From: Trypanosoma brucei
Taxonomy: Eukaryota
Assembly: GCA_000002445.1 (NCBI GenBank)
Contig: CM000207.1
Coordinates: forward strand, 2,432,001-2,496,000
Length of the DNA stretch: 64,000 nucleotides
Direction of reading: 5' to 3'
Of the stretch, positions 1-23,508 are shown in pieces. Position 1 is the stretch's first letter, and each line of letters begins with the position of its first letter. Under the pieces are notes generated by a model. That model was not told the origin of the DNA, searched no databases, and was given only the letters and a program-made list of their open reading frames with translations. The translations under genes were made by a program, and so were the position numbers.

Positions 1-1700
1 ATTCCCTTTCCTCTGCGGTACCCTTCTTATCCTTTTTAAATGATGAACTTAGTGTGAATTAGAAGAGTGCACGAATTTATCCAAAATAGAGTGGGTGTAA
101 TGGGAAGACACATCACGTAGAGGACACTCCGTATGCTAGCAGCTGATGCTTACGGTTGGAAGTAGAAGAAGCATTCAGTATACGAGGCGTAGTGCCACCT
201 TGCCATAAATTGGCTGTCGGAGTTGACAAGAGATCGCTGAAGTAGCAACTCTCTAAGGGCCACATAATGAAGATGTCCGCCATAATGTCGCTAAGACACA
301 CATGAAAACATGCACAGTGGTCGTGCCAAAGTATCCTCACCACAGTAGCAACACAAAAAGTAAGGGTGAGTTCCTATGGAAGAAAAATTATGCGATATTC
401 CGGCAAGGCACTTGAAACCCTTTAGTAGCAGACGGTATCCAAGGATTGTTAACAACAAACATGGTATGAGAATCACAACACACAAGGGGAAAGAGGAACA
501 ATTACTCTTTGAACCTCAATACTTTTAGAGGGTCGAACTCTCATCTGTCATCTGTCCCACGTGGCACTCTCACACACCACATCAAGGGTGATGAGAGAAT
601 TTTTGTGTAAGCATATGATGGTCAGTGAGTTGGTGAAAAATGGAGCATATTTGCAGCACTGCCGTTTTTGTTATTTTCTACTCCAGCACTTTTGATACAG
701 TGGGCCATATCAGGGTTGTGCAATAAATGCGTAAAGTTGGTGGAGAAAAGTCTAACACCCTCTGCACCGCATCCTTACCAACAGAATGAGTAGCAGCAGC
801 TCCCTGAGATAAATCACTTCCCCCTTACAAGAATAGTTTAACAGAGGGCAGGCGAAAGGCACAGTGTTCGGCCTTTCAATGTTAAAAGCTGCAGTTAACT
901 CCATTTATTTTCTTACTAAACATCCCAAGACACAGCTTAAAGCATGGATTCTTTGTGGAAGACTTGACAGTGAGGAGAGGAAACGTGGATGGCTTTTCAG
1001 AAGGAACTGAATGTTATAGCTGTGATAGGAATCCGTATTTACTTCGGGAAAGTCGTCACGAAGAAAACAGGGTGTGAGGTGTTGGGAGGACATTTGGGGT
1101 CACGGTAATGGGGATACGCGGCGATGCCCACTCCATGCTGAATTTATATCCACACCGTTAATGTACTGGCAAATCGGATATCCGCAGCGCCTTCTTACCC
1201 ATAGAGTGCAAAGTGAGGAGTACAAACTGACATTGGCACTTTTCATTACTTCCAACATGTATTACACACGCGTTACTCGGATGTAAGATATCGTGTGATT
1301 ACAGGAGTTATTTCAAATATTAATAAAGCTATGGAGAGTAATAGTCTCCTTATCCTTTTTCACCCAATCTGTCATTTCATATAGTTTCTTCCATGAGAGT
1401 TCGATGATATGGAACAATAATGTGTGGTGGAGCATATGTGTGAAAAGAGGAACTGACGGCACTTTTACTCCTGTCACCGGGTAAAATGAATTAGGAGCTA
1501 TGGAAGACTTTCTCATTGAGGGTTATGACGCTGCCTCACTATTTCATGGGATTCGTGCGAAGGGAAAACAGAAAAATTATGTTTCAGCAGTAGTCATGAA
1601 AATCTTACTTTTTTGTACCTGAAGTAATAACCCTGAGAACACTGAAACACTTCCATGAGACGTGTAGAAGAATGTCGAAATGCCAAGAAAGATCATAATA

Positions 1701-1735
1701 CTTCACTTTTTGGTTCTTTTTTAATTTTGCTAAAG
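1701..1735 (+). promoter_or_regulatory. Polypyrimidine tract plus AG, a putative trans-splice acceptor for VSG-like gene A
   Basis: cttcactttttggttcttttttaattttgct followed by aaAG about 25 nt before the ATG at 1761. This is the kinetoplastid splice-acceptor architecture. Confidence 0.5.
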
Positions 1736-1760
1736 ACAAGGGTGAAACATCCAAGGCACT

Positions 1761-3185
1761 ATGTACTGGGTTGTAGTTTTACTGACGGTACTCCACAGTT
1801 GTCATCGGGCGCTTGGTAAGGAGGATATAGTGAATCAAAAGGAGTTTGAAGCGTTGTGTCGAATGATAAATTGGGCAGAAGAAAGACTTGAGCACATAAA
1901 AGTAACGAAACGAGTTACCCAAGAAGCTCTGAAAATAGGCGTAAGATATCTTGAAGTGGCCGGTGAGGAAGAGTGTAGACACATCGCCAAAGCGCAGGAA
2001 GATTCTTGTACCAAGAAAATGGAGGATCGGAAAAGGAATTGCGGGCTGTACAAAAATTTTTGGGAAGAGGCGCAGAAAGCAGTGAAGGAAAGGGCTTTTA
2101 GCGGAGAGAAGCTGGAGCGTAAAATAGACGCTTTGGGGGAGCATACAGTGGACGAAATAAAAAAAAAGGGAATGTACGGGGCAGATATATATCATGATGT
2201 TGAAGCGAAGAGGCCGTCAGGAAATATGAGAAAAATGGAGGAGCACCTCATTAAAGCTCTTTATGGAATGGAATATTTTAGTGAAGATATAAAAGGAGGG
2301 GATTCAGATCGAAGCAGAGTCTGCGGGCAAAATCTGCGTAACAATAAGGCAACGGGGGGTTGGTCACTAGCGGTGGATTTGTTGTGCTTGTGTGCAACCC
2401 ACAACTCCTGGAAAGGTAGGAAGAAGGTTTGCTGCGCAGACTGCAGTACAGGAGAGAATAGAGACGAATGGAATCCAGAGTCAAACGAGGCACCACGCTG
2501 GGATTTTCTGAAACAGAAGTGTGCAGGCCGTCACCGAAATCGTCACGACATGATCGAAAAACTGAGTGAAGCGGAAGAGAATCTTATGAAAACAGTAACT
2601 AAAATAGGCACAATACCATATACACATACGTACGTGCTTGGAACCGCTGTAAATAGCAGAATAAAACCATGCGGGGCTGATATAAACAAGCAGCAGGAAA
2701 TATGTGTGCACTACGGATCAGATAACGGAACGAAACTTCCCTGGTTAAAAGCGTTGCAAAAGGTAGAAAAGGAAATGAAACTTACGCTGAAAGATAAACA
2801 AGATAAGTCAGCTAAGCTCAAGCGGATGGAAGAACTAAATCAAGAGATCGAAAGCTTAATCAGAGGTGATACAGGGCGAGGAGGCCAACGGGGAAGACAG
2901 AAACGCAGTGTCAATCCCGAGAACAGTGTCCCAGAAACCCCAGCTGACCCGAGCGATCCGACACAGTCAGTCCCACATACCAATGAAAAAAAGCGAAGTG
3001 TAAGGAAACCGATATCAACAGGTAACGGTGCAACCAAAAGCTACAATAGCGAAGAGGATGATTCTTACGAATATGAGTGCGAGGGAGAAAACTCAGCATG
3101 CTCAGATTCGCCAGCAAAACCAACAGTAAAAAACAGCAAAAGTGCTATAAATTGTCCACTGGGATTAATTTTGCTTTTGGTATAA
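1761..3185 (+). CDS. VSG-like, cysteine-rich variant surface glycoprotein family member A (474 aa)
   Basis: ATG start. N-terminal hydrophobic signal peptide (MYWVVVLLTVLHS). Numerous conserved cysteines (EALCR, DLLCLCA, VCCADC, KQKC). Short hydrophobic C-terminal tail (CPLGLILLLV) that could be a GPI signal. A paralog lies in the adjacent repeat. The VSG-family assignment comes from general architecture, not motif-level proof. Confidence 0.55.
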   Translation: MYWVVVLLTVLHSCHRALGKEDIVNQKEFEALCRMINWAEERLEHIKVTKRVTQEALKIGVRYLEVAGEEECRHIAKAQEDSCTKKMEDRKRNCGLYKNFWEEAQKAVKERAFSGEKLERKIDALGEHTVDEIKKKGMYGADIYHDVEAKRPSGNMRKMEEHLIKALYGMEYFSEDIKGGDSDRSRVCGQNLRNNKATGGWSLAVDLLCLCATHNSWKGRKKVCCADCSTGENRDEWNPESNEAPRWDFLKQKCAGRHRNRHDMIEKLSEAEENLMKTVTKIGTIPYTHTYVLGTAVNSRIKPCGADINKQQEICVHYGSDNGTKLPWLKALQKVEKEMKLTLKDKQDKSAKLKRMEELNQEIESLIRGDTGRGGQRGRQKRSVNPENSVPETPADPSDPTQSVPHTNEKKRSVRKPISTGNGATKSYNSEEDDSYEYECEGENSACSDSPAKPTVKNSKSAINCPLGLILLLV

Positions 3186-6100
3186 ACGAAAAGCTCCAAC
3201 ACAAGGTAGAGAAAAAAAGAGGATATGGAATTTGTTGTGTTTGCGGCACCTCAATATTCCACACGGAGGGAGATGGTGTGACTTTCAAAACCTGTACAGG
3301 AGACATGTGATGCGTCAGAGCAATCGTCAACTCCAGTAGAGTCATCCAGGAAACCGCAACGAGAGAGGGAGATGTTGGGAGGGTTTATGCTTCGTGATAC
3401 TGGTAATGCGTATTGTTGAGAACCTTTTCATACCAAAAGGAACACTACGAAAATTGAAAGCATTTTCTAATGATGGGAAAGCACATAGAGGCTATAAACA
3501 ACTAAAATGTACCAACCGTACTGAGTGGGTGGTGTGAAAATAAAAAAGTATATGTTGTAGAGAATGTCGATACCGGAAGGCTACAAGAATGGAAGGAATA
3601 ATAAATACAGAAAAAGAGACGCCATACTTTTCACTGAGCTATCTACAGGACATGGAAGGGATATTTCCAATGAGGAAGTTGGGAAGGTTTCAAACAAAAA
3701 AGGAGAAAACATATGAGTGATAATGTTAATGTAAGTAACGGAAGGAAGTGTTGCTTTGGAAAAAGACAGACAAATAACTGAAAGAGGGTTGACTGGAGAA
3801 AATGATGCCAGGTGAAACACATAAAAAAATGAGTTCGGGAAGCATGGATATTTCGAACTTGGAACATAAAGACAAAAGAGCAGGAAAAGTTGTGGGAAAT
3901 GGCATGTTATATATTTGCATCGTAGTCGCAAAAAACTGTTTGTTGTGTTGAATGAGTGGAGAAACTGAGGCACTCACGGCCGCTGAATAAGAAAATGGAG
4001 AAGGAAAGCCATGGAAAGTAATGAGGGAATAGCTTGAAAGGCACGCACACACAGACACACACACGTGATAGCGGGGTGTGGAAAAGCAAGGAGTGGAACG
4101 AAAGCCTTCATCGCTATTATGGCTAAGAAATACGACACCACCAGAATGCACTGCAGTGTTTAAAGGCAGACGAATTATTAAAGGGATCAGTATTATTGGC
4201 TGAAATACCTGTGGTATTAACTTTTGCGGTGCTTGAAGTGATGGCATGAAAAAGATTAGAAACCTCTCTTTGTTGTTAGGTCGGATGCATGGAAAAAAGA
4301 GAGTGCGTGGCTGCTCTAAGAATGTAACGTGCAAACTACAAGGCAGTAATAAAAGACCCCAAAGCAATTCCATGGCCAAAAGGACTTGATGGCGCCGTGG
4401 TTCAGACGAGAAATATCACACTACAGAATCCGACATTGCATGGGACGCAACTGCGTATCAACGCGGCAGTGATATAAGCTATCAAAACAAAAAATTATGC
4501 AATCACGGAGGTTTTTCATGCAGCAGCGTTGTCTACTATGGAAAATGCAGTAACCACTGAAAAGGAGGAAACATGCTTCAAGGAGCAAAAAGTAGCAGTG
4601 ATTGCTGTAACAACAAGATTGTGAGTGGAAATAAAACAAACAGGAAGCTAAACTACGACCCAAGGATATTTAGAGTAGTATCGACACTGCCAAAGCATCA
4701 CTAATGAATGCATATTTACCGAATGCGAATATATATGTATATGTGAATATATACGTACATCAATATTCTACAAAAATAGTGCTTTGCAGCGTGTGAGACT
4801 TTCAAAACATTTTTTGTGGAACACTTAAGCATAATTGTGATTAATGGAAAATTGATCTATGGATACCTTCTTTTTGCTACATGTATTTTGAATATGTTTC
4901 GGAAGAAAATGGTAATATCTCTGAGGTAAAATCTGGAACAATATAAAAATGCTAAAGGAAATTTCTGGGTTTTACAGCAGCAATATCATGAACTACAACA
5001 GTGGTTATAAGATCTGTAAGACGGAAGTACATGTTTGTGCCATTGTACGATTTTCTTGATATATGCATTGAAGTGATTTGAATGAATAGGGGTGCAAGTC
5101 TCATGAAACATGCTCTTCATTCAACCAAGGCTTTTTAGGAATATGCAGCAAAAGTCGAAAAATGACTGACTTGACAACCAAAATGGCGTCCCTATTCTAT
5201 TAGTGAAAATTCGAATGAAACAGCACATAATGGAACTACATGAAAATTCAAAGGAAATGTGATATCAAATTCCTAACCCGCTGTATCAAAATTCTCACAC
5301 ACCTTTCATAAAGGTATTTTAACATACATGTTTGAATTGAAAACACTCGATAAAATAATTTATGTGATCTGCGTATGAAATGTGTGATGAATTCTGCCCA
5401 ATCGTGCTAATATCGCTATTATTGTTAAACCTCACCTTACCATTTGTTTCAGCAAAGGCAAGAAGGAAATACTAAATGATGAAATACTGTTAAACGGTGA
5501 GGGTACAGAGGAATATCTTTTCCGGAACAGAGAGTAACTATCTGAGAGGAGTTTAATGAACCGTGTACAATGATAGTGTCAGCACACCAAGTCTTGGAAC
5601 AGCATAAGCAGGCTAGGATAACAAAAGGGGAAGAAGTGACATCTGGTGCTATACAGTAACTAGCTTCAGAAGCAAAAAGAAAAGCTGCTCAACCCTATGG
5701 AAGCAATGTAACCTCACAGCCGTAGCAGTAGCGTGACTAAGAAAGGAAATGTGAACTTAGAAAAAAACATATTGAACTCAAAGTGAAAAAGCAGAAGCAG
5801 TCAACCGCACAGAGGTATCAAAGGCATAACGTAGTTTGTTGGAAGGGGCGCCGAGAAAAATCAAGTTTTAGGCAGGTGATCCGGTATGGATGTATCACAC
5901 TGCGCACGGATGCCACAAACCAAGAGACTTCGAAGATATGAAAGGGAAGATTAGAGACTTCGCGTCTATCAGGCGTGCTTGAGTTAGGGACCGTAGTGGA
6001 AAGCAAACACAAACTGCTTACCCGAAGAGGGACAGTAACATGAACAATCCGAAATGGGTTTCAAACTATCTGGCACAATTCCATTTTGACTGGGTGTGAG

Positions 6101-9100
6101 AGAGAGTTCTTGGGACAGAGACAAACACGCGCGTTACTATAACCTTACAAATGACTCGAATACAGATATCAAATGCAATATTCTAAATGAACAATAAAAA
6201 CAAGGCTCAAGAGGCAACAATGCATAAGATTCCATAGAGTTACTTGACATTAGCGTGAGGGTAGAAAAGAAAATGAAGAGATTTTGTGAATCTGGAAAAG
6301 GAAATGTGAGAACGCAACCCTACAACAGCTTTTAAAATATCCCATGGACTAAAGCGTTGAATAGAATTGACGGGAAAATGAGCAACCTGACAGTGAGCAC
6401 AAACAAGGGAAACTATGGCAAAGCTTACATAGTTAAGCTGTGGCATGTCAATTTAATTAAAACGTGCCAGAGTGAAGAGAGGATGCCATTCAGAGTTATA
6501 AGAAAGCAAAGCCATGAAAGTGTAATTGACACGATTACTTTGTTACAATCCGATACAAATACGAGTAAAACACAAATAATAATTATGGGAGCAAGCCAGG
6601 AGTTACCTGTGAAGGTGAAATTACTGCTGATTATAATAGTGCGAGTGGCTCTTGACACAAATGCGAAAACCGTAAGCACAGTTCAGCGTCCACGAGCTCA
6701 AACTGTGAAACAGGATGAAAGCTGGTCAACGGTGAGATTGTGAGGCCACATCGCGAGTCAGTCATCTAAAACAGTGTGAATTTCGTTCAAACATTACCCA
6801 GGTTATATTTGTTTCTGTTTGTAAACGTGTGATTAGGCACTAAACTTCAATTCTAGCAGTGTTTGAATTTGTAGTACATTTGATATTTACCTCTTTTGTT
6901 GGAAAGCCAGTACGATTTTACGGTTTTGCCGATTGTTCAACGTAGTCTTGAAAGGGCTCAAAAGCACAACTACGTGACTTCTTAACATTTCATCAGAGAT
7001 GCACTACACTACACTACACGGGTGAGCACATCGCCGTAACTCGGGGGCAGGTTTACTTTTTTGACTCAGCATCAAAAAGGTAGAACCTTGAATATGATGC
7101 AAGTGGACCTCAGGTGGGGACTATCTGGCGCAAGAAAACGCTAGCAGAACTCGGGTCTCTCCCTCACTTGAAGTAAAAATTGTGTTGCATTGCGGGCTCC
7201 GGTGACGATTGCTCACTCTTTATTCAGATTTTTGAGGTTACCAAGCATGTAAAGCTAAGGAAGTGCAGTTCTTTCTCTGTAGTTGTTGGGTGAGCGGTTA
7301 TGTAAATGGGTATATCTTCACATTTTTATATTTCAATGTTGGCTTTTACGAATTTTTTTGTTTGCAATGCGTTGAAATTACACGACAACGACGTGGCTCA
7401 GGGTGTTACATGTACTGATTTAATTTTTAACGCCATCTCAGTTAGTGAAAGGATACGATGGCGATCCGCAAAGGGAAGGAAAGAGACTTCCGGATTGCAG
7501 AGACGTACCAAAAATTGACAGGAATTTAGGTTGCTCAAAGGAAAATAATTATGGATACTAAGCGGTAAGAGACTTTGTGCTGGAGAGGCTTCTGGGGTTG
7601 GATTCTGTTTGAACAGAAACTGCACGCCATGACTGATAAGTGAGCTGGTTCCCCTGAGGCATAGACGGGTGAATAATGCTTTCCTCAGTTTTTTTGAGGG
7701 GGAATTCGTCGCTGTAAAAGAGTCACCTGGTGTGAAAAGGATTGATAGAGCGTATCCGAACATTTTAACTATTCCAATCTAAGGAACAAGAAGTGTGAAA
7801 CATCTGGTGAGAGTAGAACGTCTTGTTACCTTAGCTCCCTTGGGCGGAACACAGATTTAGGGTCGTGTAAAAGAGGGACGAGAGGTGTGTCTTCCTATTG
7901 AAGTTGGAGGTCTCTAGCTGAAAAAAAGCCACTGATTCTAGTGACATGAATAGTCCAGACAATATCCCTAGGCGCGCGCACCTCACAGGCCGGCAGAATA
8001 GTAAAACTCAATTTTCACTACAATCCAGTTACCAAACTGTACATTTAATCTTACTCTTCCCACTGTAAAAACATATAAGTGTTATTCAACTCGGGTGCTG
8101 AATCCATACCAAAGCACATAGAGGTAACAAATAAAAGCCTCTATTTCTGTAAACTAATTCACACTTGCTTGCGAATGCACACCTCTCCTTTAACATTCGT
8201 AAGACAGTATAGGGTTTTACTGAAGTCCTGGTTTACGCAAGATATTATATACGGTTGTTTACGCAGTCACCTCTACTGGTTTCTGGACAAGAATGTGACC
8301 AGCTGCAAAGCATGGCTCTCAATGGGAGTGATTTGCGAGTCATGTTAAAGAGCCATGCTATGGAGACTCATACATGTGTATATTATTGTTGGGGTGATTC
8401 ACCAGCCCTTTTTACAAAATGTGTAATATTCTCTTGCATTTGGCAGTGAAGCATAAAAGCGTGCTGCTGTTGTACTGAATATATTCCCTTTCCTCTGCGG
8501 TACCCTTCTTATCCTTTTTAAATGATGAACTTAGTGTGAATTAGAAGAGTGCACGAATTTATCCAAAATAGAGTGGGTGTAATGGGAAGACACATCACGT
8601 AGAGGACACTCCGTATGCTAGCAGCTGATGCTTACGGTTGGAAGTAGAAGAAGCATTCAGTATACGAGGCGTAGTGCCACCTTGCCATAAATTGGCTGTC
8701 GGGGTTGACAAGAGATCGCTGAAGTAGCAACTCTCTAAGGGCCACATAATGAAGATGTCCGCCATAATGTCGCTAAGACACACATGAAAACATGCACAGT
8801 GGTCGTGCCAAAGTATCCTCACCACAGTAGCAACACAAAAAGTAAGGGTGAGTTCCTATGGAAGAAAAATTATGCGATATTCCGGTAAGGCACTTGAAAC
8901 CCTTTAGTAGCAGGCGGTATCCAAGGATTGTTAACAACAAACATGGTATGAGAATCACAACACACAAGGGGAAAGAGGAACAATTACTCTTTGAATCTCA
9001 ATACTTTTAGAGGGTCGAACTCTCATCTGTCATCTGTCCCACGGTGGCACTCTCACACACCACATCAAGGGTGATGAGAGAATTTTTGTGTAAGCATATG

Positions 9101-10183
9101 ATGGTCAGTGAGTTGGTGAAAAATGGAGCATATTTGCAGCACTGCCGTTTTTGTTATTTTCTACTCCAGCACTTTTGATACAGTGGGCCATATCAGGGTT
9201 GTGCAATAAATGCGTAAAGTTGGTGGAGAAAAGTCTAACACCCTCTGCACCGCATCCTTACCAACAGAATGAGTAGCAGCAGCTCCCTGAGATAAATCAC
9301 TTCCCCCTTACAAGAATAGTTTAACAGAGGGCAGGCGAAAGGCACAGTGTTCGGCCTTTCAATGTTAAAAGCTGCAGTTAACTCCCTTCATTTTCTTACC
9401 AAACATCCCAAGACACAGCTTAAAGCACGGATTCTTTGTGAAATACTCGTCGGTGAGGAGAGGAAACGTGGATGGCTCTTCAGAAGGGACTGAATGTTAT
9501 AGCTGTGATAGGAATCCGTATTTACTTCGGGAAAGTCGTCACGAAGAAAACAGGGTGTGAGGTGTTGAGAGGACATTTTGAGGTCACAGTAATGGGGAAA
9601 CGCGGCGACACCCACTCCATGTTGAATTTATATCCACACCGTTAGTGTACTGGCAAATCGGATATCCGCAGCGCCTTCTTACCCATAGAGTGCAAAGTGA
9701 AGAATACAAACTGACATTGGCACTTTTCATTACTTCCAACATGTATTACACACGCGTTACTCGGATGTAAGATATCGTGTGATTACAGGAGTTATTTCAA
9801 ATATTAATAAAGCTATGGAGAGTAATAGTCTCCTTATCCTTTTTCACCCAATCTGTCATTTCATATAGTTTCTTCCATGAGAGTTCGATGATATGGAACA
9901 ATAATGTGTGGTGGAGCATATGTGTGAAAAGAGGAACTGACGGCACTTTTACTCTTGTCACCGGGTAAAATGAATTAGGAGCTATGGAAGACTTTCTCAT
10001 TGAGGGTTATGACGCTGCCTCACTATTTCATGGGATTCGTGCGAAGGGAAAACAGAAAAATTATGTTTCAGCAGTAGTCATGAAAATCTTACTTTTTTGT
10101 ACCTGAAGTAATAACCCTGAGAACACTGAAACACTTCCATGAGACGTGTAGAAGAATGTCGAAATGCCAAGAAAGATCATAAT

Positions 10184-10218
10184 ACTTCACTTTTCTGTTT
10201 TTCTTTAATTTTGCTAAA
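10184..10218 (+). promoter_or_regulatory. Polypyrimidine tract plus AG, a putative trans-splice acceptor for VSG-like gene B
   Basis: This is the duplicated counterpart of 1701-1735 (cttcacttttctgtttttctttaattttgct ... aaag). Confidence 0.45.
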
Positions 10219-10232
10219 GACAAGGGTGAAGC

Positions 10233-11654
10233 ATGCGGAGAAGTATGTACTGGGTTGTATTTTTAGTGGCGGCACTACAGGGTATTCATTTAGTGTCGGG
10301 GCAGGATATAGTGAATCAAAAGGAATTTGAAGCGTTGTGTCGAATTGTAAATTGGGCAGAAAAGGGACTGAAGCAGATAACTTTGGCACGACAGGTTACC
10401 CAAGAAGCTCAGAAAATAGGCGTGAGATATCTTGAAGTAGTCGGTGAGGAAAATGCTGCTGAGCTCGCCAAAACACAAGAAGATTCTTGTGCATATAAAA
10501 GGGAGGTTGGCGGAAGGAATTGTGTGCTGTACAAAACATTTTGGCAACATGCGCAGGAAGCATTGAAGGGGACTGCCAGATCGTCAGTCCATCACAGAGC
10601 AATGAATACATTGGAATATCATACAATTGAAAAAATAAAAGAAAAAGCAATGCACGGGGCAGATATATATCACGATGTTGGAGCGGAGAGTCTGTCAGTA
10701 AAGGTGGAAAAGATTGAGCGGAAAATCAATCAAGCCCTTTATGGAATGGAATATTTCACCGAAGAAATAAAGCCAGGAGGAGACAGGAGCAGAGTGTGCG
10801 GTCAAAGCTCGCGTAGTGAAATGATTATTGGAGGAAACTCACTGGCCGTGGACTTTTTGTGCTTGTGTGCAATGCACAGTTCTTGGAATGGAATAAAGGT
10901 ATGCTGCACAGACTGCACTACGGGAGAGAATAGCAATGAATGGGACCCAGAATCAAACGGAGTACAACGTTGGAAATTTTTGAAACAGAAATGTGCTGAT
11001 CATAATCCAAATTATTATGACACGGAGAAAAGACTGCGTAATGCAAAACAGAATTTTATGGATACAGTAACAACGATACATGGAAGAGGAGGAAGAACTT
11101 TGTACAAACTTGGGAAAAAGCAAAGCAGTGAAGTAAACAACTGCGGGGCGGGTACTGGCCGCGGGCAAGGAATATGCGTGCTATATAAGGGACATGGAGA
11201 GGAGCTGCCCTGGATGAAAGCGTTGGTAGAGGTCGAAAATGAGATGGAAGTTCTGCTTCAAGACAAACACAATAAGTCAGCAAAACTAGAGAGAATTAAA
11301 GAGCTAAGTCAAGAGATAGAAAAGTTAATCAAAGGTGATCCGGGGCGAGGAGGCCAACGGGGAAGACAGAAACGCAGTGTCAATCCCGAGAACAGTGTCC
11401 CAGAAACCCCAGCTGACCCGAGCGATCCGACACAGTCAGTCCCACATACCAATGAAAAAAAGCGAAGTGTAAGGAAACCGATATCAACAGGTAACGGTGC
11501 AACCAAAAGCTACAATAGCGAAGAGGATGATTCTTACGAATATGAGTGCGAGGGAGAAAACTCAGCATGCTCAGATTCGCCAGCAAAACCAACAGTAAAA
11601 AACAGCAAAAGTGCTATAAATTGTCCACTGGGATTAATTTTGCTTTTGGTATAA
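10233..11654 (+). CDS. VSG-like, cysteine-rich variant surface glycoprotein family member B (473 aa). The alternative ATG at 10245 aligns with the start of A.
   Basis: Same architecture as A. The N-terminal roughly 360 aa are only about 60-70 percent identical to A, whereas the last roughly 110 aa (RGRQKRSVNPENS...SAINCPLGLILLLV) and both flanks are identical. Confidence 0.55.
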   Translation: MRRSMYWVVFLVAALQGIHLVSGQDIVNQKEFEALCRIVNWAEKGLKQITLARQVTQEAQKIGVRYLEVVGEENAAELAKTQEDSCAYKREVGGRNCVLYKTFWQHAQEALKGTARSSVHHRAMNTLEYHTIEKIKEKAMHGADIYHDVGAESLSVKVEKIERKINQALYGMEYFTEEIKPGGDRSRVCGQSSRSEMIIGGNSLAVDFLCLCAMHSSWNGIKVCCTDCTTGENSNEWDPESNGVQRWKFLKQKCADHNPNYYDTEKRLRNAKQNFMDTVTTIHGRGGRTLYKLGKKQSSEVNNCGAGTGRGQGICVLYKGHGEELPWMKALVEVENEMEVLLQDKHNKSAKLERIKELSQEIEKLIKGDPGRGGQRGRQKRSVNPENSVPETPADPSDPTQSVPHTNEKKRSVRKPISTGNGATKSYNSEEDDSYEYECEGENSACSDSPAKPTVKNSKSAINCPLGLILLLV

Positions 11655-14600
11655 ACGAAAAGCTCCAACACAAGGTAGAGAAAAAAAGAGGATATGGAAT
11701 TTGTTGTGTTTGCGGCACCTCAATATTCCACACGGAGGGAGATGGTGTGACTTTCAAAACTTGTACAGGAGACATGTGATGCGTCAGAGCAATCGTCAAC
11801 TCCAGTAGAGTCATCCTGGAAACCGCAACGAGAGAGGGAGATGTTGGGAGGGTTTATGCTTCGTGATACTGGTAATGCGTATTGTTGAGAACCTTTTCAT
11901 ACCAAAAGGAACACTACGAAAATTGAAAGCATTTTCTAATGATGGGAAAGCACATAGAGGCTATAAACAACTAAAATGTACCAACCGTACTGAGTGGGTG
12001 GTGTGAAAATAAAAAAGTATATGTTGTAGAGAATGTCGATACCGGAAGGCTACAAGAATGGAAGGAATAATAAATACAGAAAAAGAGACGCCATACTTTT
12101 CACTGAGCTATCTACAGGACATGGAAGGGATATTTCCAATGAGGAAGTTGGGAAGGTTTCAAACAAAAAAGGAGAAAACATATGAGTGATAATGTTAATG
12201 TAAGTAACGGAAGGAAGTGTTGCTTTGGAAAAAGACAGACAAATAACTGAAAGAGGGTTGACTGGAGAAAATGATGCCAGGTGAAACACATAAAAAAATG
12301 AGTTCGGGAAGCATGGATATTTCGAACTTGGAACATAAAGACAAAAGAGCAGGAAAAGTTGTGGGAAATGGCATGTTATATATTTGCATCGTAGTCGCAA
12401 AAAACTGTTTGTTGTGTTGAATGAGTGGAGAAACTGAGGCACTCACGGCCGCTGAATAAGAAAATGGAGAAGGAAAGCCATGGAAAGTAATGAGGGGATA
12501 TCTTGAAAGCCGCGCACACAGACACACACACGTGATAGCGGGGTGTGGAAAAGCAAGGAGTGGAACGAAAGCCTTCATCGCTATTATGGCTAAGAAATAC
12601 GACACCACCAGAATGCACTGCAGTGTTTAAAGGCAAACGAATTATTAAAGGGATCAGTATTATTGGCTGAAATACCTGTGGTATTAACTTTTGCGGTGCT
12701 TGAAGTGATGGCATGAAAAAGATTAGAAACCTCTCTTTGTTGTTAGGTCGGATGCATGGAAAAAAGAGAGTGCGTGGCTGCTCTAAGAATGTAACGTGCA
12801 AACTACAAGGCAGTAATAAAAGACCCCAAAGCAATTCCATGGCCAAAAGGACTTGATGGCGCCGTGGTTCAGACGAGAAATATCACACTACAGAATCCGA
12901 CATTGCATGGGACGCAACTGCGTATCAACGCGGCAGTGATATAAGCTATCAAAACAAAAAATTATGCAATCACGGAGGTTTTTCATGCAGCAGCGTTGTC
13001 TACTATGGAAAATGCAGTAACCACTGAAAAGGAGGAAACATGCTTCAAGGAGCAAAAAGTAGCAGTGATTGCTGTAACAACAAGATTGTGAGTGGAAATA
13101 AAACAAACAGGAAGCTAAACTACGACCCAAGGATATTTAGAGTAGTATCGACACTGCCAAAGCATCACTAATGAATGCATATTTACCGAATGCGAATATA
13201 TATGTATATGTGAATATATACGTACATCAATATTCTACAAAAATAGTGCTTTGCAGCGTGTGAGACTTTCAAAACATTTTTTGTGGAACACTTAAGCATA
13301 ATTGTGATTAATGGAAAATTGATCTATGGATACCTTCTTTTTGCTACATGTATTTTGAATATGTTTCGGAAGAAAATGGTAATATCTCTGAGGTAAAATC
13401 TGGAACAATATAAAAGTGCTGGAGAAAATTTCTGGGTTTTACAGCAGCAATATCATGAACTACAACAGTGGTTATAAGATCTGTAAGACGGAAGTACATG
13501 TTTGTGCCATTGTACGATTTTCTTGATATATGCATTGAAGTGATTTGAATGAATAGAGGTGCAAGTCTCATGGAACATGCTCTTCATTCAACCAAGGCTT
13601 TTTAGGAATATGCAGCAAAAGTCGAAAAATGACTGACTTGACAACCAAAATGGCTTCCCTATTCTATTAGTGAAAATTCGAATGAAACAGCACATAATGG
13701 AACTACATGAAAATTCAAAGGAAATGTGATATCAAATTCCTAACCCGCTGTATCAAAATTCTCACACACCTTTCATAAAGGTATTTTAACATACATGTTT
13801 GAATTGAAAACACTCGACAAAATAATTTATGTGATATGCATATGAAATGTGTGATGAATTCTGCCCAATCGTGCTAATATCGCTATTATTGTTAAACCTC
13901 ACCTTACCATTTGTTTCAGCAAAGGCAAGAAGGAAATACTAAATGATGAAATACTGTTAAACGGTGAGGGTACAGAGGAATATCTTTTCCGGAACAGAGA
14001 GTAACTATCTGAGAGGAGTTTAATGAACCGTGTACAATGATAGTGTCAGCACACCAAGTCTTGGAACAGCATAAGCAGGCTAGGATAACAAAAGGGGAAG
14101 AAGTGACATCTGGTGCTATACAGTAACTAGCTTCAGAGGCAAAAGGAAAAGCTGCTCAATCCTATTGAAGCAATGTGACCTGCTTTCCCCTAGTCCTATT
14201 CCTGTTGCTGCGGTGCATAATATTTTGACAGCAATGTGATGCAGCACTCAGCCATTAACACTCTAGCCATAAATGTAGTATCTAATATGTGAATGGTAAC
14301 CCATGGCGATACATTCCATATGGAACAATATCACATTGTTAAATATGCGCATGGAATTAAAACTATAGCACTAAATTGAAAATGAAAAATTAGAAAAGAA
14401 AAAGATATGAATTATCAAGAGAAGCATATTCTTCACTGACATTCATTTATTTTAATATAATCATAGTTTGATGTTATATTAAATAATAAAGAGCCCAATA
14501 TACTGTATAGCAGAATGGCAACAATTTCACTATAGCACCTGTAAATAAGAATATGTAATAAAATAAATGATAAAAAAATAAATCAAAATACAGCAAGCAC

Positions 14601-15586: not shown

Positions 15587-17359
15587 TTAATTCATCATCA
15601 TATTTCTAATCATCACCGATAGAGCTTGGCAACTGTACGATTCGATAACTCCAGCATTTCCATTCACTCTTATAACCTTTACCAACTTGTCCGTAACTTC
15701 ATTGTTTTGCCAGACACCAATATCTCCAATAATATCACTATAGGAATATTCACCCGACTTCTTCATAGTTTCCAACGCATCATGCACACTTTTCAGGCGC
15801 CATTCATAACAGCCTAAACCAAATATATAACGAGGCAGAGGCCCAATTGAATTAATACGTCCCTCCACTATTCTCCACTCATCTTCCATTTCCTTCCTCA
15901 ATTCGTATCTTCTTTTGTTGAATACCTTTTCCCTTGCATGTATTGACAGTTTTTTCCATGCCATAAATGCCTTGATGTCACACACATCATCGCAGTTCAT
16001 AATAATTTGGCGGCCTCCAGTATTTGTAGTCCACTCATCAAAATGGCCACTATTCGGGGAGGTGAGGAGAGTAACACCCCAAATATCAGAGGGCAGTTGA
16101 GTGTATAATAATTTTTGCATCATCCCACTTATGTCTATAATGATGTGCCCTCTTTTTTCATATTTCATATTATTTATTATCCGGACAGCAACTCCCGAGT
16201 CTTCGTACCGCACAACCCTCCCTCTTTCATCATCCTTTCTGTTGTATATCAGGAAGGAAACTTCTCCCAAGAAATATGCAACAACATCAAGCATTCCTTC
16301 ATTGAAGTGAAACAGTGAATAAAATAAAAATGATCCAAGGCCACACGATTTTCCAATACCGTGAGTACCAATAACAACATGTATCGGTGGCCTCACAACT
16401 GACCTGTCCACCCACCATGCTTTCAGCACTTGTTGGATTATATACCACACACGCATGATTTCGCGACGGATATATACATGCTGGGAAACTGCCTTGCACT
16501 TCTCACTGTAACCCAATACAAACCTGTTGTGTGGCCAACCTCTCTCCGATGTAAGAACAATAATTTCCAAACCATTGGGTCTTTCCTCCATTTCCGAATC
16601 AACATTCGCAGGTTCAGGAGTTACATCCACCTCTTCTTCGGTCCATATGCGCCGCGGTCTTCCACCGAATACCTTCATGCCAAGTGGCTCTTCATCATAA
16701 CCCGACACCACATAACTCCACGTCGCATTGCAAATGGAATCATACACTCCTTCAAGGTTTACAGCACCACCAGCTGTTTGAGCAGCTCGCTTTTCCGCTC
16801 TCTTGGCGGCCGTCACCGCAGCATCCAACCTTCCCCTCGCCATGGGACCAACAAATTCTCTTATTTCCCCTCTTCCCTTCTCCTCCCACTGCCTGAGGTA
16901 GTAAATTTCTTTTTCATCAAGATACCTTGCTTTCCCATTCATTTCAGAGAATTGGTTATATAATTCTTTATATTCCTCAAACTCATCAGTGCCTTGTATA
17001 TCCTCAAGAATCTCAGCATCAGCAATATATCTTCTGGGATTCTTAACAAAAATGGGCATCCTAACATTTTCTGCTTCAGCCACCGCAAAAGTCCCGCCAA
17101 CGAACTCCTGAATAAAGTCGTTCACCGTCATTTTACGCAGAACCGCATAATCTTCCAGCAACACATCTTCAACTTCACTGTTCATCGTCCAGTTGGGCCC
17201 CTCTTCAGTTCTCTGCCGTATTTGTGGAGGCTGAGCAGCAGGAGGAGGCGGCGGTACATTTTCATCCCGTGGTCTCCTCATGGCCACTTCAACGTTACCC
17301 GCCATTTGTTGGTTTGCATTATTTCTTTGTGGAGGTGCAGGTCTGTTTGCCCTTGGCAT
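15587..17359 (-). CDS. RHS: Retrotransposon hot spot (RHS) protein, C-terminally truncated (590 aa; probable pseudogene or partial gene)
   Basis: ATG start confirmed (cat at 17357-17359 on plus). RHS-family hallmarks are present: the N-terminal ...NWTMNSEVEDVLLE...MTVNDFIQEFVGG block, LEGVYDSICNATWSYVV, IIVLTSERGWPH, the P-loop VVIGTHGIGKS, IIMNCDDVCDIKAF, GPLPRYIF and KLVKVIRV. Full-length RHS proteins are about 700-900 aa, so about 250 aa of the C-terminus are missing. Confidence 0.7.
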   Translation of the reverse strand: MPRANRPAPPQRNNANQQMAGNVEVAMRRPRDENVPPPPPAAQPPQIRQRTEEGPNWTMNSEVEDVLLEDYAVLRKMTVNDFIQEFVGGTFAVAEAENVRMPIFVKNPRRYIADAEILEDIQGTDEFEEYKELYNQFSEMNGKARYLDEKEIYYLRQWEEKGRGEIREFVGPMARGRLDAAVTAAKRAEKRAAQTAGGAVNLEGVYDSICNATWSYVVSGYDEEPLGMKVFGGRPRRIWTEEEVDVTPEPANVDSEMEERPNGLEIIVLTSERGWPHNRFVLGYSEKCKAVSQHVYIRREIMRVWYIIQQVLKAWWVDRSVVRPPIHVVIGTHGIGKSCGLGSFLFYSLFHFNEGMLDVVAYFLGEVSFLIYNRKDDERGRVVRYEDSGVAVRIINNMKYEKRGHIIIDISGMMQKLLYTQLPSDIWGVTLLTSPNSGHFDEWTTNTGGRQIIMNCDDVCDIKAFMAWKKLSIHAREKVFNKRRYELRKEMEDEWRIVEGRINSIGPLPRYIFGLGCYEWRLKSVHDALETMKKSGEYSYSDIIGDIGVWQNNEVTDKLVKVIRVNGNAGVIESYSCQALSVMIRNMMMN

Positions 17360-20300
17360 AACTCTTTTATTAACGCAACTTAGCTTCCCTTTCTTTTCTC
17401 AGAATATATATAACTGAAGTAAAATAAACAATGGGGGAAGCGATAGTGTGTGAATAGAGTAATATAATATTTTAAAAAAAAATCAGGCAACCCAATTTTT
17501 ATTCATTCTTGGTTCTATAGTACGACATTATACCGTATCTGGTATTGAGGGGAACAATTCCCAAATACAGTTACTGTATAAATACCTCCCTTGCCTCATT
17601 ATCATGTATTAAATATAAAAATAATGAATTTCATACATCACCAGTTCCAACTGCAGCTAGAGTGCAAAAAACAAAAACATCCTCGAACATCTGCCAATCC
17701 AAAACAGATAAAAGAATAAAAGCAAAAATCAATGGGCAATGATAATAAAGAGGAAAGCTGACAAAAGCTCATCGCAACACAAACAAACATACAAAAACCG
17801 TTCCACTAATTTCCACTCTTGTTGATCCGCGACCACAGGTTCTATTGACTAAAGGTTATCCATTCAAACACAAATATAGTTCCCAAAGTGCTTCACTCCT
17901 GAGTCCCACTTGCAATTAAGAACTTCTTTCCCGAATTGAGGAATTATAAAACCATCCCCACCATCCTTGCATGGAAGCATCCGTTACCATCATGGCCACA
18001 GTTGCTGCAACTCGCTACTTGCTCACTGGTGTTTTCTTTACCAAACTGCACATCCATTTTTGTGTCAGCTGTAACGCATATGTGTCTGTGTGTGTGTGGT
18101 GGCATGGTTAAATTATTGGGTCGCATCAGGACCATATTGTGTCATTACAAATATCATGCTACCATTTGAAAAAATAAGTAGCAGTAGAATTAAGGAGAAA
18201 GCTATTGTTTTCTCCTCACTGCTGCCACGTACATCATGCGTGATACAACAACTTCCATTTATTCTATGGTAGTTTTTCATATAGCAAGGGATACTCGGAA
18301 TTGTTGTATCACTTTCGTTGTCCCAGCAATGATTGTGCCCCACATTTCTTCATGTTCGTAACTATTTTGTTTCCACGACATTTAACCACGTCATGTGCCT
18401 CACACTGATACATATGTTGCATATCCATGTTTGAGTCCTCAATATTTCAGGGGTCGCCTGCTGCATCCTCACGACATCGGCGTCTTCTGAAAAGATCCTC
18501 GTGATGGTGTGTAAAATTATGGGATTCTCTTTTATTAACTGATGGGGAGTCGATTCAAATTCAATAGTTCCCCATTTTAGTTAAGGCATCGGAACCCTGC
18601 CCGAATATTCTCAGGTAACTTCACTTGGGAGAGGAACGACTTTAGATCAAACAATTCCACCGACTGGTCATGGAGAGTATTTAAATACTGGGAAAAGTGA
18701 CACAATGGGAGATATGCCTCATAATCATCCCTGCTCTTTTTAGCCTTTGGTCATGCAATAAATCAACGCCTTCTTCCAAATCTGTTTTTCCTCCATCACA
18801 AAGAATGGCGCACAACCCATCCTGTCATATCTCTCTCTGAAACTGGGCCAATGATACGCGATTGCTTCATTATTTGGGCATCCTTTTTTCTACAATGCGC
18901 AATTTCAGATTCCCTGTTTGATACTTTCTTTCTTTCTCTCTTTCCACATCATCTGTGCTATTCATAATGCTCCAAACCTCATCAAATCGTTCACTCGCTG
19001 CTTGCATCATCCTCTGTCGTATCCACGGAAGGGAAATCATTCCCACATTCATTCCCTATTGGAGAGGCGAAGTCTTTTCTTTTCCTCCTCATCCCGTGAT
19101 GTCACCTTCGTTTTCCCTTGTGAGTGTCAAGGAATGCTGTGCCATCGATAATTTGGAAAGGTATTCCCTGTTATAAATCTCGTCTTCCCTCACATCGAAG
19201 CCGCCCATTCCTTCCAATTGTATCTTACATCAAAAACATTTAAAAAACCGACTTTCTGACGGCAGCTGTCACACATTTGAAATACCGCACTGTGCTTTGT
19301 GGAAGTTCCATTGTGTAGATGTGCTTTCCCAATTGTATTAATAATATGTTGTCAATGTCGTGTTCAATTGCAACTGCTGCCGCTGCGTGTGTCAGCAGTG
19401 CTTTCCTCTTTATGGAATGTTCTATCGTTACGTATGGTAGTTTCAGTATGGTGTCATTTTCCCCTTTGTGGTAATGGCTATGAACTTCTTCCCCTTTCCT
19501 CCCGAGGTTCCTCCCTATGACTTTTTTCACACTGGCAATGTCCTTTTCCCAGTTGATATTTACGCATCGTGTGACTCTGTGGGTATCGCTTTTGAATTTC
19601 TTTGGAAGGTTCCCTCCCTCCAATCCACTGTTGAAGCTTTCTTGCCGTGTGAATGTGGCATAACATTTTTCCTCTTTTTTTATTTGGGAGCTGTGTGATT
19701 TCTTTTTGCCACCAGATGGCTGGATGCAATTCATTCCATTGATATTGCAACTGGATACCACTCTGGACGGAACTTCCTGCAAGATATTATCGAATCCCCA
19801 TTACAACATGTGTTGTGTTTGTTTGATGGGTTCACCTGTTACCGTATTGTAAAGACGGACCCCAAAACAATTTTCGCGTATACGTGTGTGCACGTGTGTC
19901 CAATAGAAATGATGGAAGAGCTCTCCTGTACTAAAATGGCGTTGCTCTTTACGAGTTGCAAACTTACAACAACAAATAAAAGTGCAATTGCATCCTATGC
20001 TGACATTCGGTAATGATTTTCCGCCAATGCATAAAAAACACCACATGATGAATTCCCTATTGCTCACATGTTTTAGTCCTCAGTCACATTCACTTTGCTA
20101 TTCCGTTGGCTCCTGAAACTAATGTCATGATGTACGTGTGGTTTTGAGTTGGAACTCGAATAACAGTAATAATAATAATAATAATAACTCCTTTCACCAA
20201 TGAGTTTACTATCGGTTGTAAAAGTGCTCTTGGTGTCACTCCATTATTCTTTTTTGAGTCCCCAGCTGTTGAATGACTGTAGAATTCATTATTATTACTT

Positions 20301-20500
20301 TTTTTTTTTTAAAGGTTAATGCACCGTTTTATTCTCCACCCTTTTCAGGTGAACTTCCTCCTGTACGGTTTATACTTTCCCCTTGTAAAATGTTTCTCAA
20401 GGCGTTTCCTCTGCGAAGCTTTGGCTATTGCTATTTTTAAAGGCATCTAAACTCACTGCTTCCGTGGTATGTTGTCGTATTATATATTATATATTATATA

Positions 20501-20537
<37 letters not shown>

Positions 20538-21910: not shown

Positions 21911-22168
21911 TTATATATTTGTTACTTGGCGTTTTAACAGTAATGTTTCCTCTTGAGTGAAGGTGTTGAGAAGTTCTACCCGCTGTTGATATTCCTCCGC
22001 TTCAATTTGGTTTCTGAATTGCATTTCTTTGCAAAATATATCACGACGTAAATACGCGTACCGTAAAGTTTCATATCCCTCCGCTAACCGATGTAAAAGT
22101 GCGCTGTCAAAACCGAAAGAATTGTTGGAGGACCTTCGCATAACTGAATTTACACAAGAGGAATTCAT
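21911..22168 (-). CDS. Small 85-aa ORF on an island of normal sequence complexity inside the AT-rich block (hypothetical)
   Basis: Non-repetitive, balanced composition in contrast to its surroundings. The C-terminal half has a coiled-coil-like character. No recognisable family. Confidence 0.2.
   Translation of the reverse strand: MNSSCVNSVMRRSSNNSFGFDSALLHRLAEGYETLRYAYLRRDIFCKEMQFRNQIEAEEYQQRVELLNTFTQEETLLLKRQVTNI

Positions 22169-22410: not shown

Positions 22411-22443
<33 letters not shown>

Positions 22444-23472: not shown

Positions 23473-23508
<36 letters not shown>

What the first reader, a model, noticed from the sequence alone, without database searches (positions are those of the whole stretch)
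1..14173. Tandemly duplicated VSG-like genes are mosaics: about 1.1 kb of diverged N-terminal coding core embedded in near-identical flanks and an identical C-terminal module
Copies A (1-5712) and B (8483-14173) are above 95-99 percent identical over 1.7 kb of 5' flank and 2.5 kb of 3' flank. Inside the ORFs, divergence begins right around the start codon. Copy B adds MRRS before the shared MYWVV. The first roughly 360 codons are only about 60-70 percent identical (for example HSCHRALGKEDIV vs QGIHLVSGQDIV, and KEFEALCRMINWAEERLEHIKVTKRV vs KEFEALCRIVNWAEKGLKQITLARQV). Identity snaps back to 100 percent at the aggtgat[a/c]c[a/g]gggcgaggaggccaacgg junction, about 2861 in A and about 11331 in B. 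That pattern is what segmental gene conversion, or donor-cassette replacement of the exposed N-terminal domain, would produce. Simple duplication followed by drift would not. If so, antigen-gene diversification has been captured in place. The 2.8 kb unique spacer (5713-8482) and the net 21-bp length difference between copies show the array is not a clean recent tandem duplication.
Basis: seen in the sequence. Interest (0 to 1): 0.75.

Follow-up and report, generated by a model that had tools for sequence, protein, structure and literature searches.

The report
Mosaic VSG-related tandem gene pair
Two neighbouring VSG-like surface-protein genes of Trypanosoma brucei share almost identical flanks and tail domain but have old, very different N-terminal domains, a real recombination pattern that is a local example of a process already documented in trypanosome gene arrays.

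Summary
Copies A (1-5714) and B (8483-14181) are 98.4-100% identical in both flanks and in the 312-bp C-terminal coding module, but 69% identical across a sharply bounded 1.16-kb core (A 1711/1747-2873). Synonymous divergence is 0.68 in the core and 0 in the C-terminal module, so drift or selection after a duplication cannot explain it; recombination is required.

The window is T. brucei brucei TREU927. A and B are the last two genes of a five-gene tandem array of 'atypical VSG' genes next to an RHS gene. They are not canonical VSG cassettes: no 70-bp repeats, no 3'UTR 16-mer, no canonical C-terminal domain. Their nearest relatives outside the family are annotated VSG-related (VR) genes.

No donor for either core exists in public protein data (best N-terminal-domain identity 62-68%). 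Three separate gene pairs in the family share a near-identical C-terminal domain with a divergent N-terminal domain.

I therefore favour old N-terminal lineages, themselves short-patch mosaics (PHI p<0.0005), with recent homogenisation of flanks and C-terminal domain between neighbours. The 'unique spacer' claim is a window-edge artefact. A duplication of an atypical VSG on chromosome 9, most likely this locus, and mosaic/concerted evolution of T. brucei arrays are both published. Interest is modest.

The parts
1..1710 (+). 5' flank of copy A; the repeat is cut by the window edge
   Evidence: 98.4% identical to 8483-10194. Of the 28 differences, 22 fall in 903-1220.
903..1220 (+). Divergent patch inside the otherwise near-identical 5' flank (copy B equivalent 9386-9704)
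   Evidence: Flank differences are clustered (variance/mean 4.4, p<1e-4). Many are polymorphisms also found in the T. b. gambiense / T. equiperdum copies, which indicates a small third-party conversion tract.
1711..2873 (+). Divergent core of copy A: polypyrimidine/5'UTR stretch, signal peptide and b-type VSG N-terminal domain
   Evidence: 69.4% nucleotide and 54% amino-acid identity to B. dS 0.68, dN/dS 0.47. Maximum chi-square breakpoints at 1747 and 2874.
1761..3185 (+). ORF A, 474 aa, atypical VSG (XP_827712 / EAN77382)
   Evidence: Pfam VSG_B E=1.4e-85. 100% match to the TREU927 protein.
2874..3185 (+). C-terminal module of A: hinge with invariant RQKRSV, a Pro/Ser/Glu-rich tail predicted disordered, and a hydrophobic C-terminus
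   Evidence: 312/312 nucleotides identical to 11343-11654. No canonical VSG C-terminal-domain Pfam hit. pLDDT below 50 for residues 370-474.
3186..5714 (+). 3' flank of copy A
   Evidence: 98.9% identical to 11655-14181. Differences are clustered (variance/mean 2.6, p=1e-4).
5715..8482 (.). Intergenic segment between the two copies; unique within the window and probably part of the array unit
   Evidence: No ORF longer than 128 aa. No match to the rest of the window or to the T. b. gambiense / T. equiperdum loci. Two annotated genes lie between p9 and A, and two between A and B.
8483..10194 (+). 5' flank of copy B
10195..11342 (+). Divergent core of copy B
   Evidence: Closest relative is the T. 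b. gambiense gene (68% N-terminal-domain identity), with patches of 89-95% nucleotide identity.
10233..11654 (+). ORF B, 473 aa, atypical VSG (XP_827715 / EAN77385)
   Evidence: Pfam VSG_B E=7e-87; accessions.
11343..14181 (+). C-terminal module plus 3' flank of copy B. Homology to A ends at 14181; collinearity with the T. b. gambiense locus continues beyond it.
15587..17359 (-). RHS (retrotransposon hot spot) gene, convergent with the array and marking its distal end. The same arrangement is found in T. b. gambiense.
   Evidence: Pfam DUF7578 + RHS_N + RHSP. Locus L002 has a 593-aa RHS gene in the same position.

Best explanation
A and B are the two distal members of a five-gene, chromosome-internal tandem array of atypical (VR-type) b-type VSG-like genes in T. 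brucei brucei TREU927.

The N-terminal-domain sequences are old paralogous lineages, about 51-63% amino-acid identical among the TREU927 genes. They are themselves patchworks built by short-tract gene conversion within the family.

The sequence between the N-terminal domains (C-terminal module, 3' flank, intergenic DNA and 5' flank) has recently been homogenised between neighbouring units by long-tract gene conversion or unequal exchange. These tracts run through the well-conserved DNA and stop where homology collapses, at the 5'UTR/signal-peptide edge and at the hinge between the N- and C-terminal domains. The result is two sharp boundaries.

Shown: the identity profile, the dS contrast, the tree discordance, the mosaicism and the absence of a donor among annotated proteins. 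Inferred: the direction of transfer (flanks homogenised rather than core replaced) and homology-limited tract termination.
For: 1. dS is 0.68 in the core and 0.00 across about 70 synonymous sites in the C-terminal module. Flanks outside the small divergent patches differ by about 0.4-0.7%. The core and the flanks therefore have different coalescence times.
2. There is no donor. The searches with A and with B's core return only nine clusters, and the best N-terminal-domain identity is 62-68%. Exhaustive HMMER puts the whole family in one 50%-identity cluster; the next relatives are 33-35% identical.
3. Among the TREU927 genes the N-terminal-domain identity matrix is star-like (51-63%; B reaches 68% to the T. 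b. gambiense gene). The C-terminal domains form pairs: A-B 100%, p6-p9 100%, p4 94% to p6/p9, p2-p5 98%. Accession order p4, p6, p9, A, B shows that C-terminal identity follows adjacency for the arrayed genes. The same pattern thus recurs three times, with boundaries always at the hinge.
4. B keeps patches at 89-95% identity to the syntenic T. b. gambiense gene, the same level as the flanks (about 90%). A does not. A contains no B-like patch longer than 27 bp. A is therefore not a lightly edited copy of B.
5. Mosaicism is real. Four-taxon informative sites show runs of 9 and 7 sites supporting alternative topologies (0 of 20,000 permutations reach this). The protein PHI test gives p<0.0005 in all subsets. 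At 96 of 166 sites where A and B differ, both residues occur in other paralogues.
6. Flank differences are clustered and are shared with other strains' copies, as expected from conversion out of a common pool.
7. T. brucei homologous recombination depends strictly on substrate length and is impeded by mismatches (PMC1904282). Mosaics and concerted evolution are the norm in T. brucei tandem arrays (PMC1855330, PMC2854126).
Against: - The DNA of the other array members (p4, p6, p9) and of p2/p5 could not be retrieved. Adjacency-linked homogenisation of their flanks is therefore inferred from protein C-terminal domains and accession order only, and the positions of p2 and p5 are unknown.
- Flank homogenisation needs two tracts, or one discontinuous tract, ending at the two edges of the N-terminal domain. 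Duplication plus a single cassette conversion is about equally parsimonious in number of events.
- T. b. gambiense carries a single b-type gene at this locus. Lister 427 and EATRO1125 each contribute one deposited family protein. Jackson et al. 2010 describe a chromosome-9 atypical-VSG duplication, most likely this locus, as specific to T. b. brucei (PMC2854126). That fits recent array growth.
- A donor could sit in unassembled subtelomeres, on the other haplotype or in pseudogenes that protein databases do not hold.
Confidence: 0.58

Rival explanations
1. A recent tandem segmental duplication of about 8.5 kb made two identical units. Gene conversion from another family member, with end points in the conserved 5'UTR and hinge, then replaced the N-terminal cassette of one copy (probably A).
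For: - The flanks are 0.4-1% diverged, as expected of a recent duplicate.
- T. b. gambiense has one gene where TREU927 has an array. Jackson 2010 calls a chromosome-9 atypical-VSG island, most likely this one, a T. b. brucei segmental duplication.
- B retains gambiense-like patches while A does not, as if A's core had been overwritten.
- Conversion bounded by conserved flanks is how VSG cassettes move, and a domain-sized conversion between tandem paralogues is documented on T. brucei chromosome 9 (PDEB1/B2, PMC2689650).
Against: - Conversion leaves the donor intact, yet nothing in public protein data exceeds 62-68% N-terminal-domain identity to A or B.
- A's core resembles at least four different paralogues in short patches and none overall. 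A single donor would have to be unsampled.
- The same pattern in the p6-p9 and p2-p5 pairs would need the scenario to repeat, each time with a lost donor.
Confidence: 0.27
2. A recent duplication followed by very fast divergence of the N-terminal domain alone, through diversifying selection or targeted hypermutation, with no exchange of sequence.
For: The exposed N-terminal domain of VSG-like proteins is a plausible target of selection. dN/dS of 0.47 is high for a trypanosome gene.
Against: - Synonymous sites diverged as well (dS 0.68 against 0), and dN/dS is below 1.
- At 96 of 166 differing sites both residues already exist in other paralogues.
- The PHI and run tests show shared blocks rather than private mutations.
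Confidence: 0.02
3. Assembly artefact: reads from a repetitive array were collapsed, so the flank identity is a consensus and not real.
For: Perfect identity over stretches of several hundred bases in a repeat-rich region next to RHS genes.
Against: - The copies carry about 50 discrete differences in the flanks, clustered and matching alleles seen in independent assemblies of T. b. gambiense and T. equiperdum.
- Both ORFs are intact.
- A chromosome-9 atypical-VSG duplication, most likely this one, was noted independently in the comparative analysis.
Confidence: 0.03

Closest known systems
Mosaic and concerted evolution of T. brucei tandem gene arrays (Jackson 2007, PMC1855330; Jackson et al. 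2010, PMC2854126, for example the ISG65 array)
   Same: Tandem surface-protein genes whose copies are recombinant mosaics. Recombination was detected with the same kinds of test (PHI, breakpoints). Copy number differs between subspecies. The 2010 paper mentions a T. b. brucei segmental duplication of an atypical VSG in a chromosome-9 VSG island (its Fig. S1), most likely this locus.
   Different: Here the homogenised and non-homogenised parts coincide with protein domains and are extremely contrasted (dS 0 against 0.68). The 2010 paper states that conserved internal VSG islands are not exposed to frequent conversion. This locus is about 10% diverged from its T. b. gambiense counterpart and is visibly mosaic.
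Segmental gene conversion forming mosaic VSGs during antigenic variation (Marcello & Barry 2007, cited through PMC2771046 and PMC2854126)
   Same: A b-type VSG N-terminal domain. N- and C-terminal domains behave as separate recombination modules. Conserved 3' sequence serves as a homology anchor. N-terminal domains are patchworks.
   Different: No 70-bp repeats, no 3'UTR 16-mer and no canonical C-terminal domain. The location is chromosome-internal, beside transporter and GTPase genes. The events are germline and evolutionary, not somatic copying into an expression site. No donor was identified.
VSG-related (VR) genes of T. brucei
   Same: Chromosome-internal and without 70-bp repeats (description in PMC2771046). 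The nearest relatives outside the family are annotated VR genes on chromosomes 3, 11, 7, 1 and 2. Several chromosome-9 VR genes (Tb09.244.2200-2330) are reported as up-regulated in bloodstream forms; I could not verify that they map to this array.
   Different: The record annotates these genes as 'VSG, atypical', not VR. The neighbouring VR clusters I checked (P0012-P0018) mostly contain near-identical members from several T. brucei-group strains, whereas none of the seven TREU927 family proteins falls in the same 90% cluster as the T. b. gambiense / 427 / 1125 gene.
Domain-sized gene conversion between the tandem paralogues TbrPDEB1 and TbrPDEB2 on T. brucei chromosome 9 (PMC2689650)
   Same: Adjacent paralogues a few kb apart, with a conversion tract that coincides with a protein domain.
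   Different: In the phosphodiesterase case the donor and recipient are both known and the converted domain becomes identical. Here the N-terminal domain is the part that stays different.

Membership tests
b-type VSG N-terminal domain superfamily (Pfam PF13206 VSG_B) | Significant full-length match to the VSG_B profile | tested here: met
   E=1.4e-85 (A) and 7.3e-87 (B), covering profile positions 2-351 of 352. A family profile hits the class-B metacyclic VSG1954 structure 8b3w at E=3.3e-7.
b-type VSG N-terminal domain superfamily (Pfam PF13206 VSG_B) | Three-helix-bundle VSG fold | tested here: inconclusive
   The AlphaFold2 model is poor (mean pLDDT 50). It has long helices at 26-67, 69-113 and 343-368. 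The top Foldseek hits are mVSG1954 and VSG11, but at E of 0.036 or worse.
Canonical VSG archive cassette | 70-bp repeats upstream of the gene | tested here: not met
   No tandem array of about 70-bp period in 1-24000. A 70-bp-repeat core motif, recalled from memory, has no match near either gene.
Canonical VSG archive cassette | Conserved 16-mer TGATATATTTTAACAC in the 3'UTR | tested here: not met
   No match in the window with up to 2 mismatches. The motif was taken from memory.
Canonical VSG archive cassette | Canonical cysteine-rich VSG C-terminal domain | tested here: not met
   Only VSG_B is hit at E up to 0.01; there is no VSG C-terminal-domain family hit. The tail is Pro/Ser/Glu-rich and predicted disordered.
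Canonical VSG archive cassette | Location in a subtelomeric array or at a telomere | tested here: not met
   Neighbours in the window are an RHS gene, a Ras/RING GTPase, a nucleoside transporter and LRR proteins. The T. b. gambiense counterpart lies on the assembled core of chromosome 9 beside GRESAG4.
VSG-related (VR) / atypical internal VSG genes | Chromosome-internal, no 70-bp repeats, VSG-like N-terminal domain with a non-canonical C-terminus | tested here: met
   The definition is as quoted in PMC2771046. The nearest non-family relatives are annotated VR genes.
Products of interlocus gene conversion / mosaic genes | Different genealogies for adjacent segments | tested here: met
   dS 0.68 against 0. 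The flank tree groups A with B, while in the core B groups with the T. b. gambiense / T. equiperdum copies. Alternative topologies are clustered (0 of 20,000 permutations). PHI p<0.0005.
Products of interlocus gene conversion / mosaic genes | An identifiable donor for the transferred segment | tested here: not met
   Best N-terminal-domain identity to any public protein is 62% for A and 68% for B. DNA of unannotated or unassembled regions could not be searched.
Concerted evolution within a tandem array | Homogenised segments more alike between neighbours than between distant units | tested here: inconclusive
   Protein C-terminal domains: A-B 100%, p6-p9 100%, p4 94% to p6/p9, against 80-83% between the two groups. 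Array order is taken from accession numbers. Flank DNA of p4, p6 and p9 could not be retrieved.

The most novel reading that the evidence does not exclude
This internal array could be a standing diversity generator that does not depend on an expression site. Uniform regulatory and anchoring modules (UTRs, C-terminal domain, GPI signal) would be actively kept identical, while N-terminal cassettes are shuffled by short-patch conversion. That would give each strain a private repertoire of VR-type surface receptors: seven distinct family genes known from TREU927 (five of them in this array), against one almost invariant gene shared by T. b. gambiense, Lister 427 and EATRO1125. Such repertoires might bear on host range or immune evasion.
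Probability: 0.12. Interest if true: 0.6.

Novelty: new member of a known kind. Interest (0 to 1): 0.3.

Why it matters
The locus is a clean, well-bounded example of two recombination regimes acting on one gene unit. Long tracts erase divergence in the flanks and tail domain. Short patches shuffle, but do not erase, an old and diverse N-terminal domain.

It also qualifies a published generalisation that internal VSG islands escape frequent conversion. It shows that one VR-type family differs sharply between TREU927 and other strains.

It does not change how antigenic variation is understood. The genes lack the hallmarks of switchable VSG cassettes, a chromosome-9 atypical-VSG duplication (most likely this one) has been noted before, and mosaic and concerted evolution of T. 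brucei arrays is established.

Tried and rejected
- **Paralogue DNA.** Fetching DNA for P0004, P0006, P0009, P0002 and the Lister 427 protein P0010 failed; none is on record. Family-wide analysis therefore had to use proteins, plus DNA from T. b. gambiense (L002) and T. equiperdum (L001).
- **The spacer 5715-8482.** I tested whether it hides a degenerate copy of the a-type VSG-like gene that lies upstream of the b-type gene in the other two genomes. tblastn, tblastx and low-stringency blastn found nothing.
- **Structure.** The AlphaFold2 model from the nine-sequence alignment was too poor to use (pLDDT 50). Foldseek gave only non-significant VSG hits. A single-sequence phmmer search against PDB sequences found nothing; the family profile found mVSG1954.
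- **Rfam.** No hits in the window.
- **GENECONV-style test.** The global p-value of my protein test was dominated by the close T. b. gambiense - T. equiperdum pair. I used only the pairwise values and relied on the PHI test instead.
- **Marcello & Barry 2007.** The paper is not held, so its content is cited only through papers that quote it.
- **Selection-only and assembly-artefact explanations.** Both considered and rejected; see the rival explanations.
Full report
**What is there**

The window is Trypanosoma brucei brucei TREU927. The ORF at 1761-3185 is 100% identical to XP_827712 and the ORF at 10233-11654 to XP_827715. Both are annotated 'variant surface glycoprotein (VSG, atypical), putative' on a 3,057,547-bp record. 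I infer this is chromosome 9 from three things: the T. b. gambiense counterpart lies on FN554972, the locus tags are of the Tb09 type, and Jackson et al. 2010 describe such a locus.

Self-BLAST and a global alignment confirm two direct copies, A (1-5714) and B (8483-14181). Identity by segment is:
- 5' flank: 98.4%
- 312-bp C-terminal coding module: 100%
- 3' flank: 98.9%
- core, A 1711-2873: 69.4%

 A two-breakpoint maximum chi-square puts the edges at A 1747 and A 2874, and Fisher's test gives p about 2e-204. Inside the core the longest identical run is 27 bp. The profile is a box, not a gradient.

**Corrections to the finding**

Copy A starts at window base 1 and its first 200 bases differ from B at no position, so the repeat is truncated by the window. 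The 'unique 2.8-kb spacer' is unique only within the window. GenBank accession order (EAN77376, 77377, 77379, 77382 = A, 77385 = B) shows that A and B are the last two of five family genes in tandem. Two annotated genes lie between p9 and A, and two between A and B. A convergent RHS gene (15587-17359, minus strand) closes the array. Copy B's homology ends at 14181, and the length difference is 15 bp in my alignment. Divergence begins 14-50 bp upstream of A's ATG.

**What the genes are**

Both proteins match Pfam VSG_B over its full length (E about 1e-85). They have no canonical VSG C-terminal domain. After an invariant RQKRSV hinge the tail is Pro/Ser/Glu-rich, predicted disordered, and ends in a hydrophobic stretch.

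There is no 70-bp repeat array and no 3'UTR 16-mer (both motifs recalled from memory). The neighbours are an RHS gene, a Ras/RING GTPase, a nucleoside transporter and LRR proteins.

An exhaustive HMMER search puts the whole family in a single 50%-identity cluster. The next relatives, at 33-35% identity, are annotated 'VSG-related' genes on other chromosomes. The genes are therefore VR-type or atypical internal VSG-like genes, not switchable archive cassettes. VR genes are described in the literature as chromosome-internal and lacking 70-bp repeats (PMC2771046).

**Recombination is required**

Between A and B, dS is 0.68 and dN/dS is 0.47 in the core. In the C-terminal module there is no substitution across about 70 synonymous sites. 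Selection or drift after a recent duplication cannot produce that contrast.

At 96 of the 166 amino-acid sites where A and B differ, both residues also occur in other paralogues. The variation is therefore drawn from a family pool and is not newly mutated.

**The family is mosaic**

I obtained DNA for the T. b. gambiense locus L002 (GRESAG4, an a-type VSG-like gene, one b-type gene and an RHS gene) and for a T. equiperdum contig, L001. In a four-way alignment:
- The flanks group A with B. They are only about 90% identical to the other two genomes.
- In the core B is nearer to T. b. gambiense, with 89-95% identity in some 100-bp windows and 57-80% in others.
- The T. b. gambiense and T. equiperdum copies are 99-100% identical over 600 bp of the N-terminal domain but 59-93% elsewhere. 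The neighbouring a-type gene region gives a baseline of 95-97%.

Parsimony-informative sites supporting the two minority topologies occur in runs of 9 and 7; none of 20,000 permutations reaches this. On the nine family proteins the PHI test gives p<0.0005 for the N-terminal domain in every subset. A shares blocks with p4, p6, p2 and the T. b. gambiense gene. B shares blocks with the T. b. gambiense gene, p2, p9 and p4.

Even the few differences between the A and B flanks are clustered (variance/mean 4.4 and 2.6, p of 1e-4 or less). Many of them are alleles also seen in the other genomes.

**Which way did the sequence move?**

Conversion leaves its donor intact. Yet searching 5.8 billion protein clusters with A, and separately with B's core, returns the same nine clusters, and no N-terminal domain is closer than 62% to A or 68% to B.

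Among the TREU927 genes the N-terminal-domain identity matrix is star-like (51-63%). The C-terminal domains fall into pairs or groups: A-B 100%, p6-p9 100% with p4 at 94%, and p2-p5 98%. For the arrayed genes these follow array order. The same pattern of identical tail with divergent head thus occurs three times, always switching at the hinge.

I therefore favour this model. The N-terminal lineages are old. The DNA between them has recently been homogenised between neighbours by long conversion tracts or unequal exchange. These tracts end where homology collapses. This fits the strict dependence of T. brucei recombination on substrate length and homology (PMC1904282).

I give this model about 0.58 and the duplication-plus-replacement model about 0.27. 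Several facts favour the latter. T. b. gambiense has a single gene at the locus. Jackson et al. 2010 describe a T. b. brucei segmental duplication. An unsampled donor on the other haplotype, in a subtelomere or in a pseudogene cannot be excluded. I also could not obtain the DNA of the other array units.

**Comparison with what is known**

Mosaic and concerted evolution of T. brucei tandem arrays is well documented (PMC1855330; PMC2854126, Table 2 and Fig. 3). Jackson et al. 2010 explicitly mention 'a segmental duplication in T. b. brucei of an atypical VSG' in a chromosome-9 VSG island, most likely this locus.

Modular behaviour of VSG N- and C-terminal domains and mosaic VSG formation are textbook. 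A domain-sized conversion between tandem paralogues on chromosome 9 is known for PDEB1/PDEB2 (PMC2689650).

Two points here are slightly new. First, the domain-exact, extreme contrast in a VR-type array. Second, the evidence that this internal island is not conversion-free, contrary to the generalisation in PMC2854126. The TREU927 haplotype also has no close counterpart of the gene that is identical, or differs at one residue, in T. b. gambiense, Lister 427 (VSG-632) and EATRO1125.

**Verdict**

This is a new member of a known kind and of modest interest.

Noticed in passing
window 2895-2912 and 11364-11381 (A residues 379-384): An RQKRSV motif, resembling a dibasic R-x-K-R proprotein-convertase site, is invariant in all nine family proteins. 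It lies at the hinge between the N- and C-terminal domains, about 20 nt downstream of the point where A/B identity returns to 100%. It might mark proteolytic release of the N-terminal domain from the GPI-anchored tail.
   Followed up: no
window 29705-29986 and 40030-40310: A 282-bp inverted repeat, 97% identical, brackets about 10 kb that contains a 485-aa ORF (31279-32736, minus strand). The right arm ends just inside the start of the Ras/RING GTPase ORF, which begins at 40102. There is no Rfam match. It could be a retroelement remnant or the ends of an inverted segment.
   Followed up: partly
window about 20100-24000: A very AT-rich stretch packed with short microsatellites ((TA)n, (AAT)n, A/T runs) follows the RHS gene. 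It looks like a strand-switch or transcription-boundary region.
   Followed up: no
L002 5758-7062; L001 4031-5266: In T. b. gambiense and T. equiperdum an a-type VSG-like gene (434 and 411 aa, weak Trypan_glycop match) sits 1.3-3 kb upstream of the b-type gene, forming an a-type/b-type pair. No trace of it exists anywhere in the window.
   Followed up: partly
proteins P0007, P0010, P0011 (T. b. gambiense DAL972, Lister 427 VSG-632, EATRO1125 VSG 1125.1139): The EATRO1125 protein is identical to the DAL972 protein apart from lacking its first four residues, and the Lister 427 protein differs at one residue. None of the seven TREU927 family proteins clusters with them at 90% identity; among those I compared, the closest N-terminal domain is B's at 68%. 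The flanks are also only about 90% identical, far below the 99.2% coding-region average reported for the two subspecies (PMC2854126). This suggests a deeply divergent haplotype at this locus.
   Followed up: partly
window 3726-4379 (minus strand) and 12376-12846 (minus strand): Minus-strand ORFs of 217 and 156 aa lie in the duplicated 3' flank. Their N-terminal parts are identical. They differ in length probably because of the 2-bp indel in the 4028-4047 patch. They probably correspond to annotated hypothetical genes between the VSG-like genes and are likely spurious.
   Followed up: no
window 15587-17359 (minus strand): The RHS ORF is only 590 aa (DUF7578 + RHS_N + RHSP). Its T. b. gambiense counterpart is 593 aa, so the short form is conserved and not a local truncation.
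   Followed up: no
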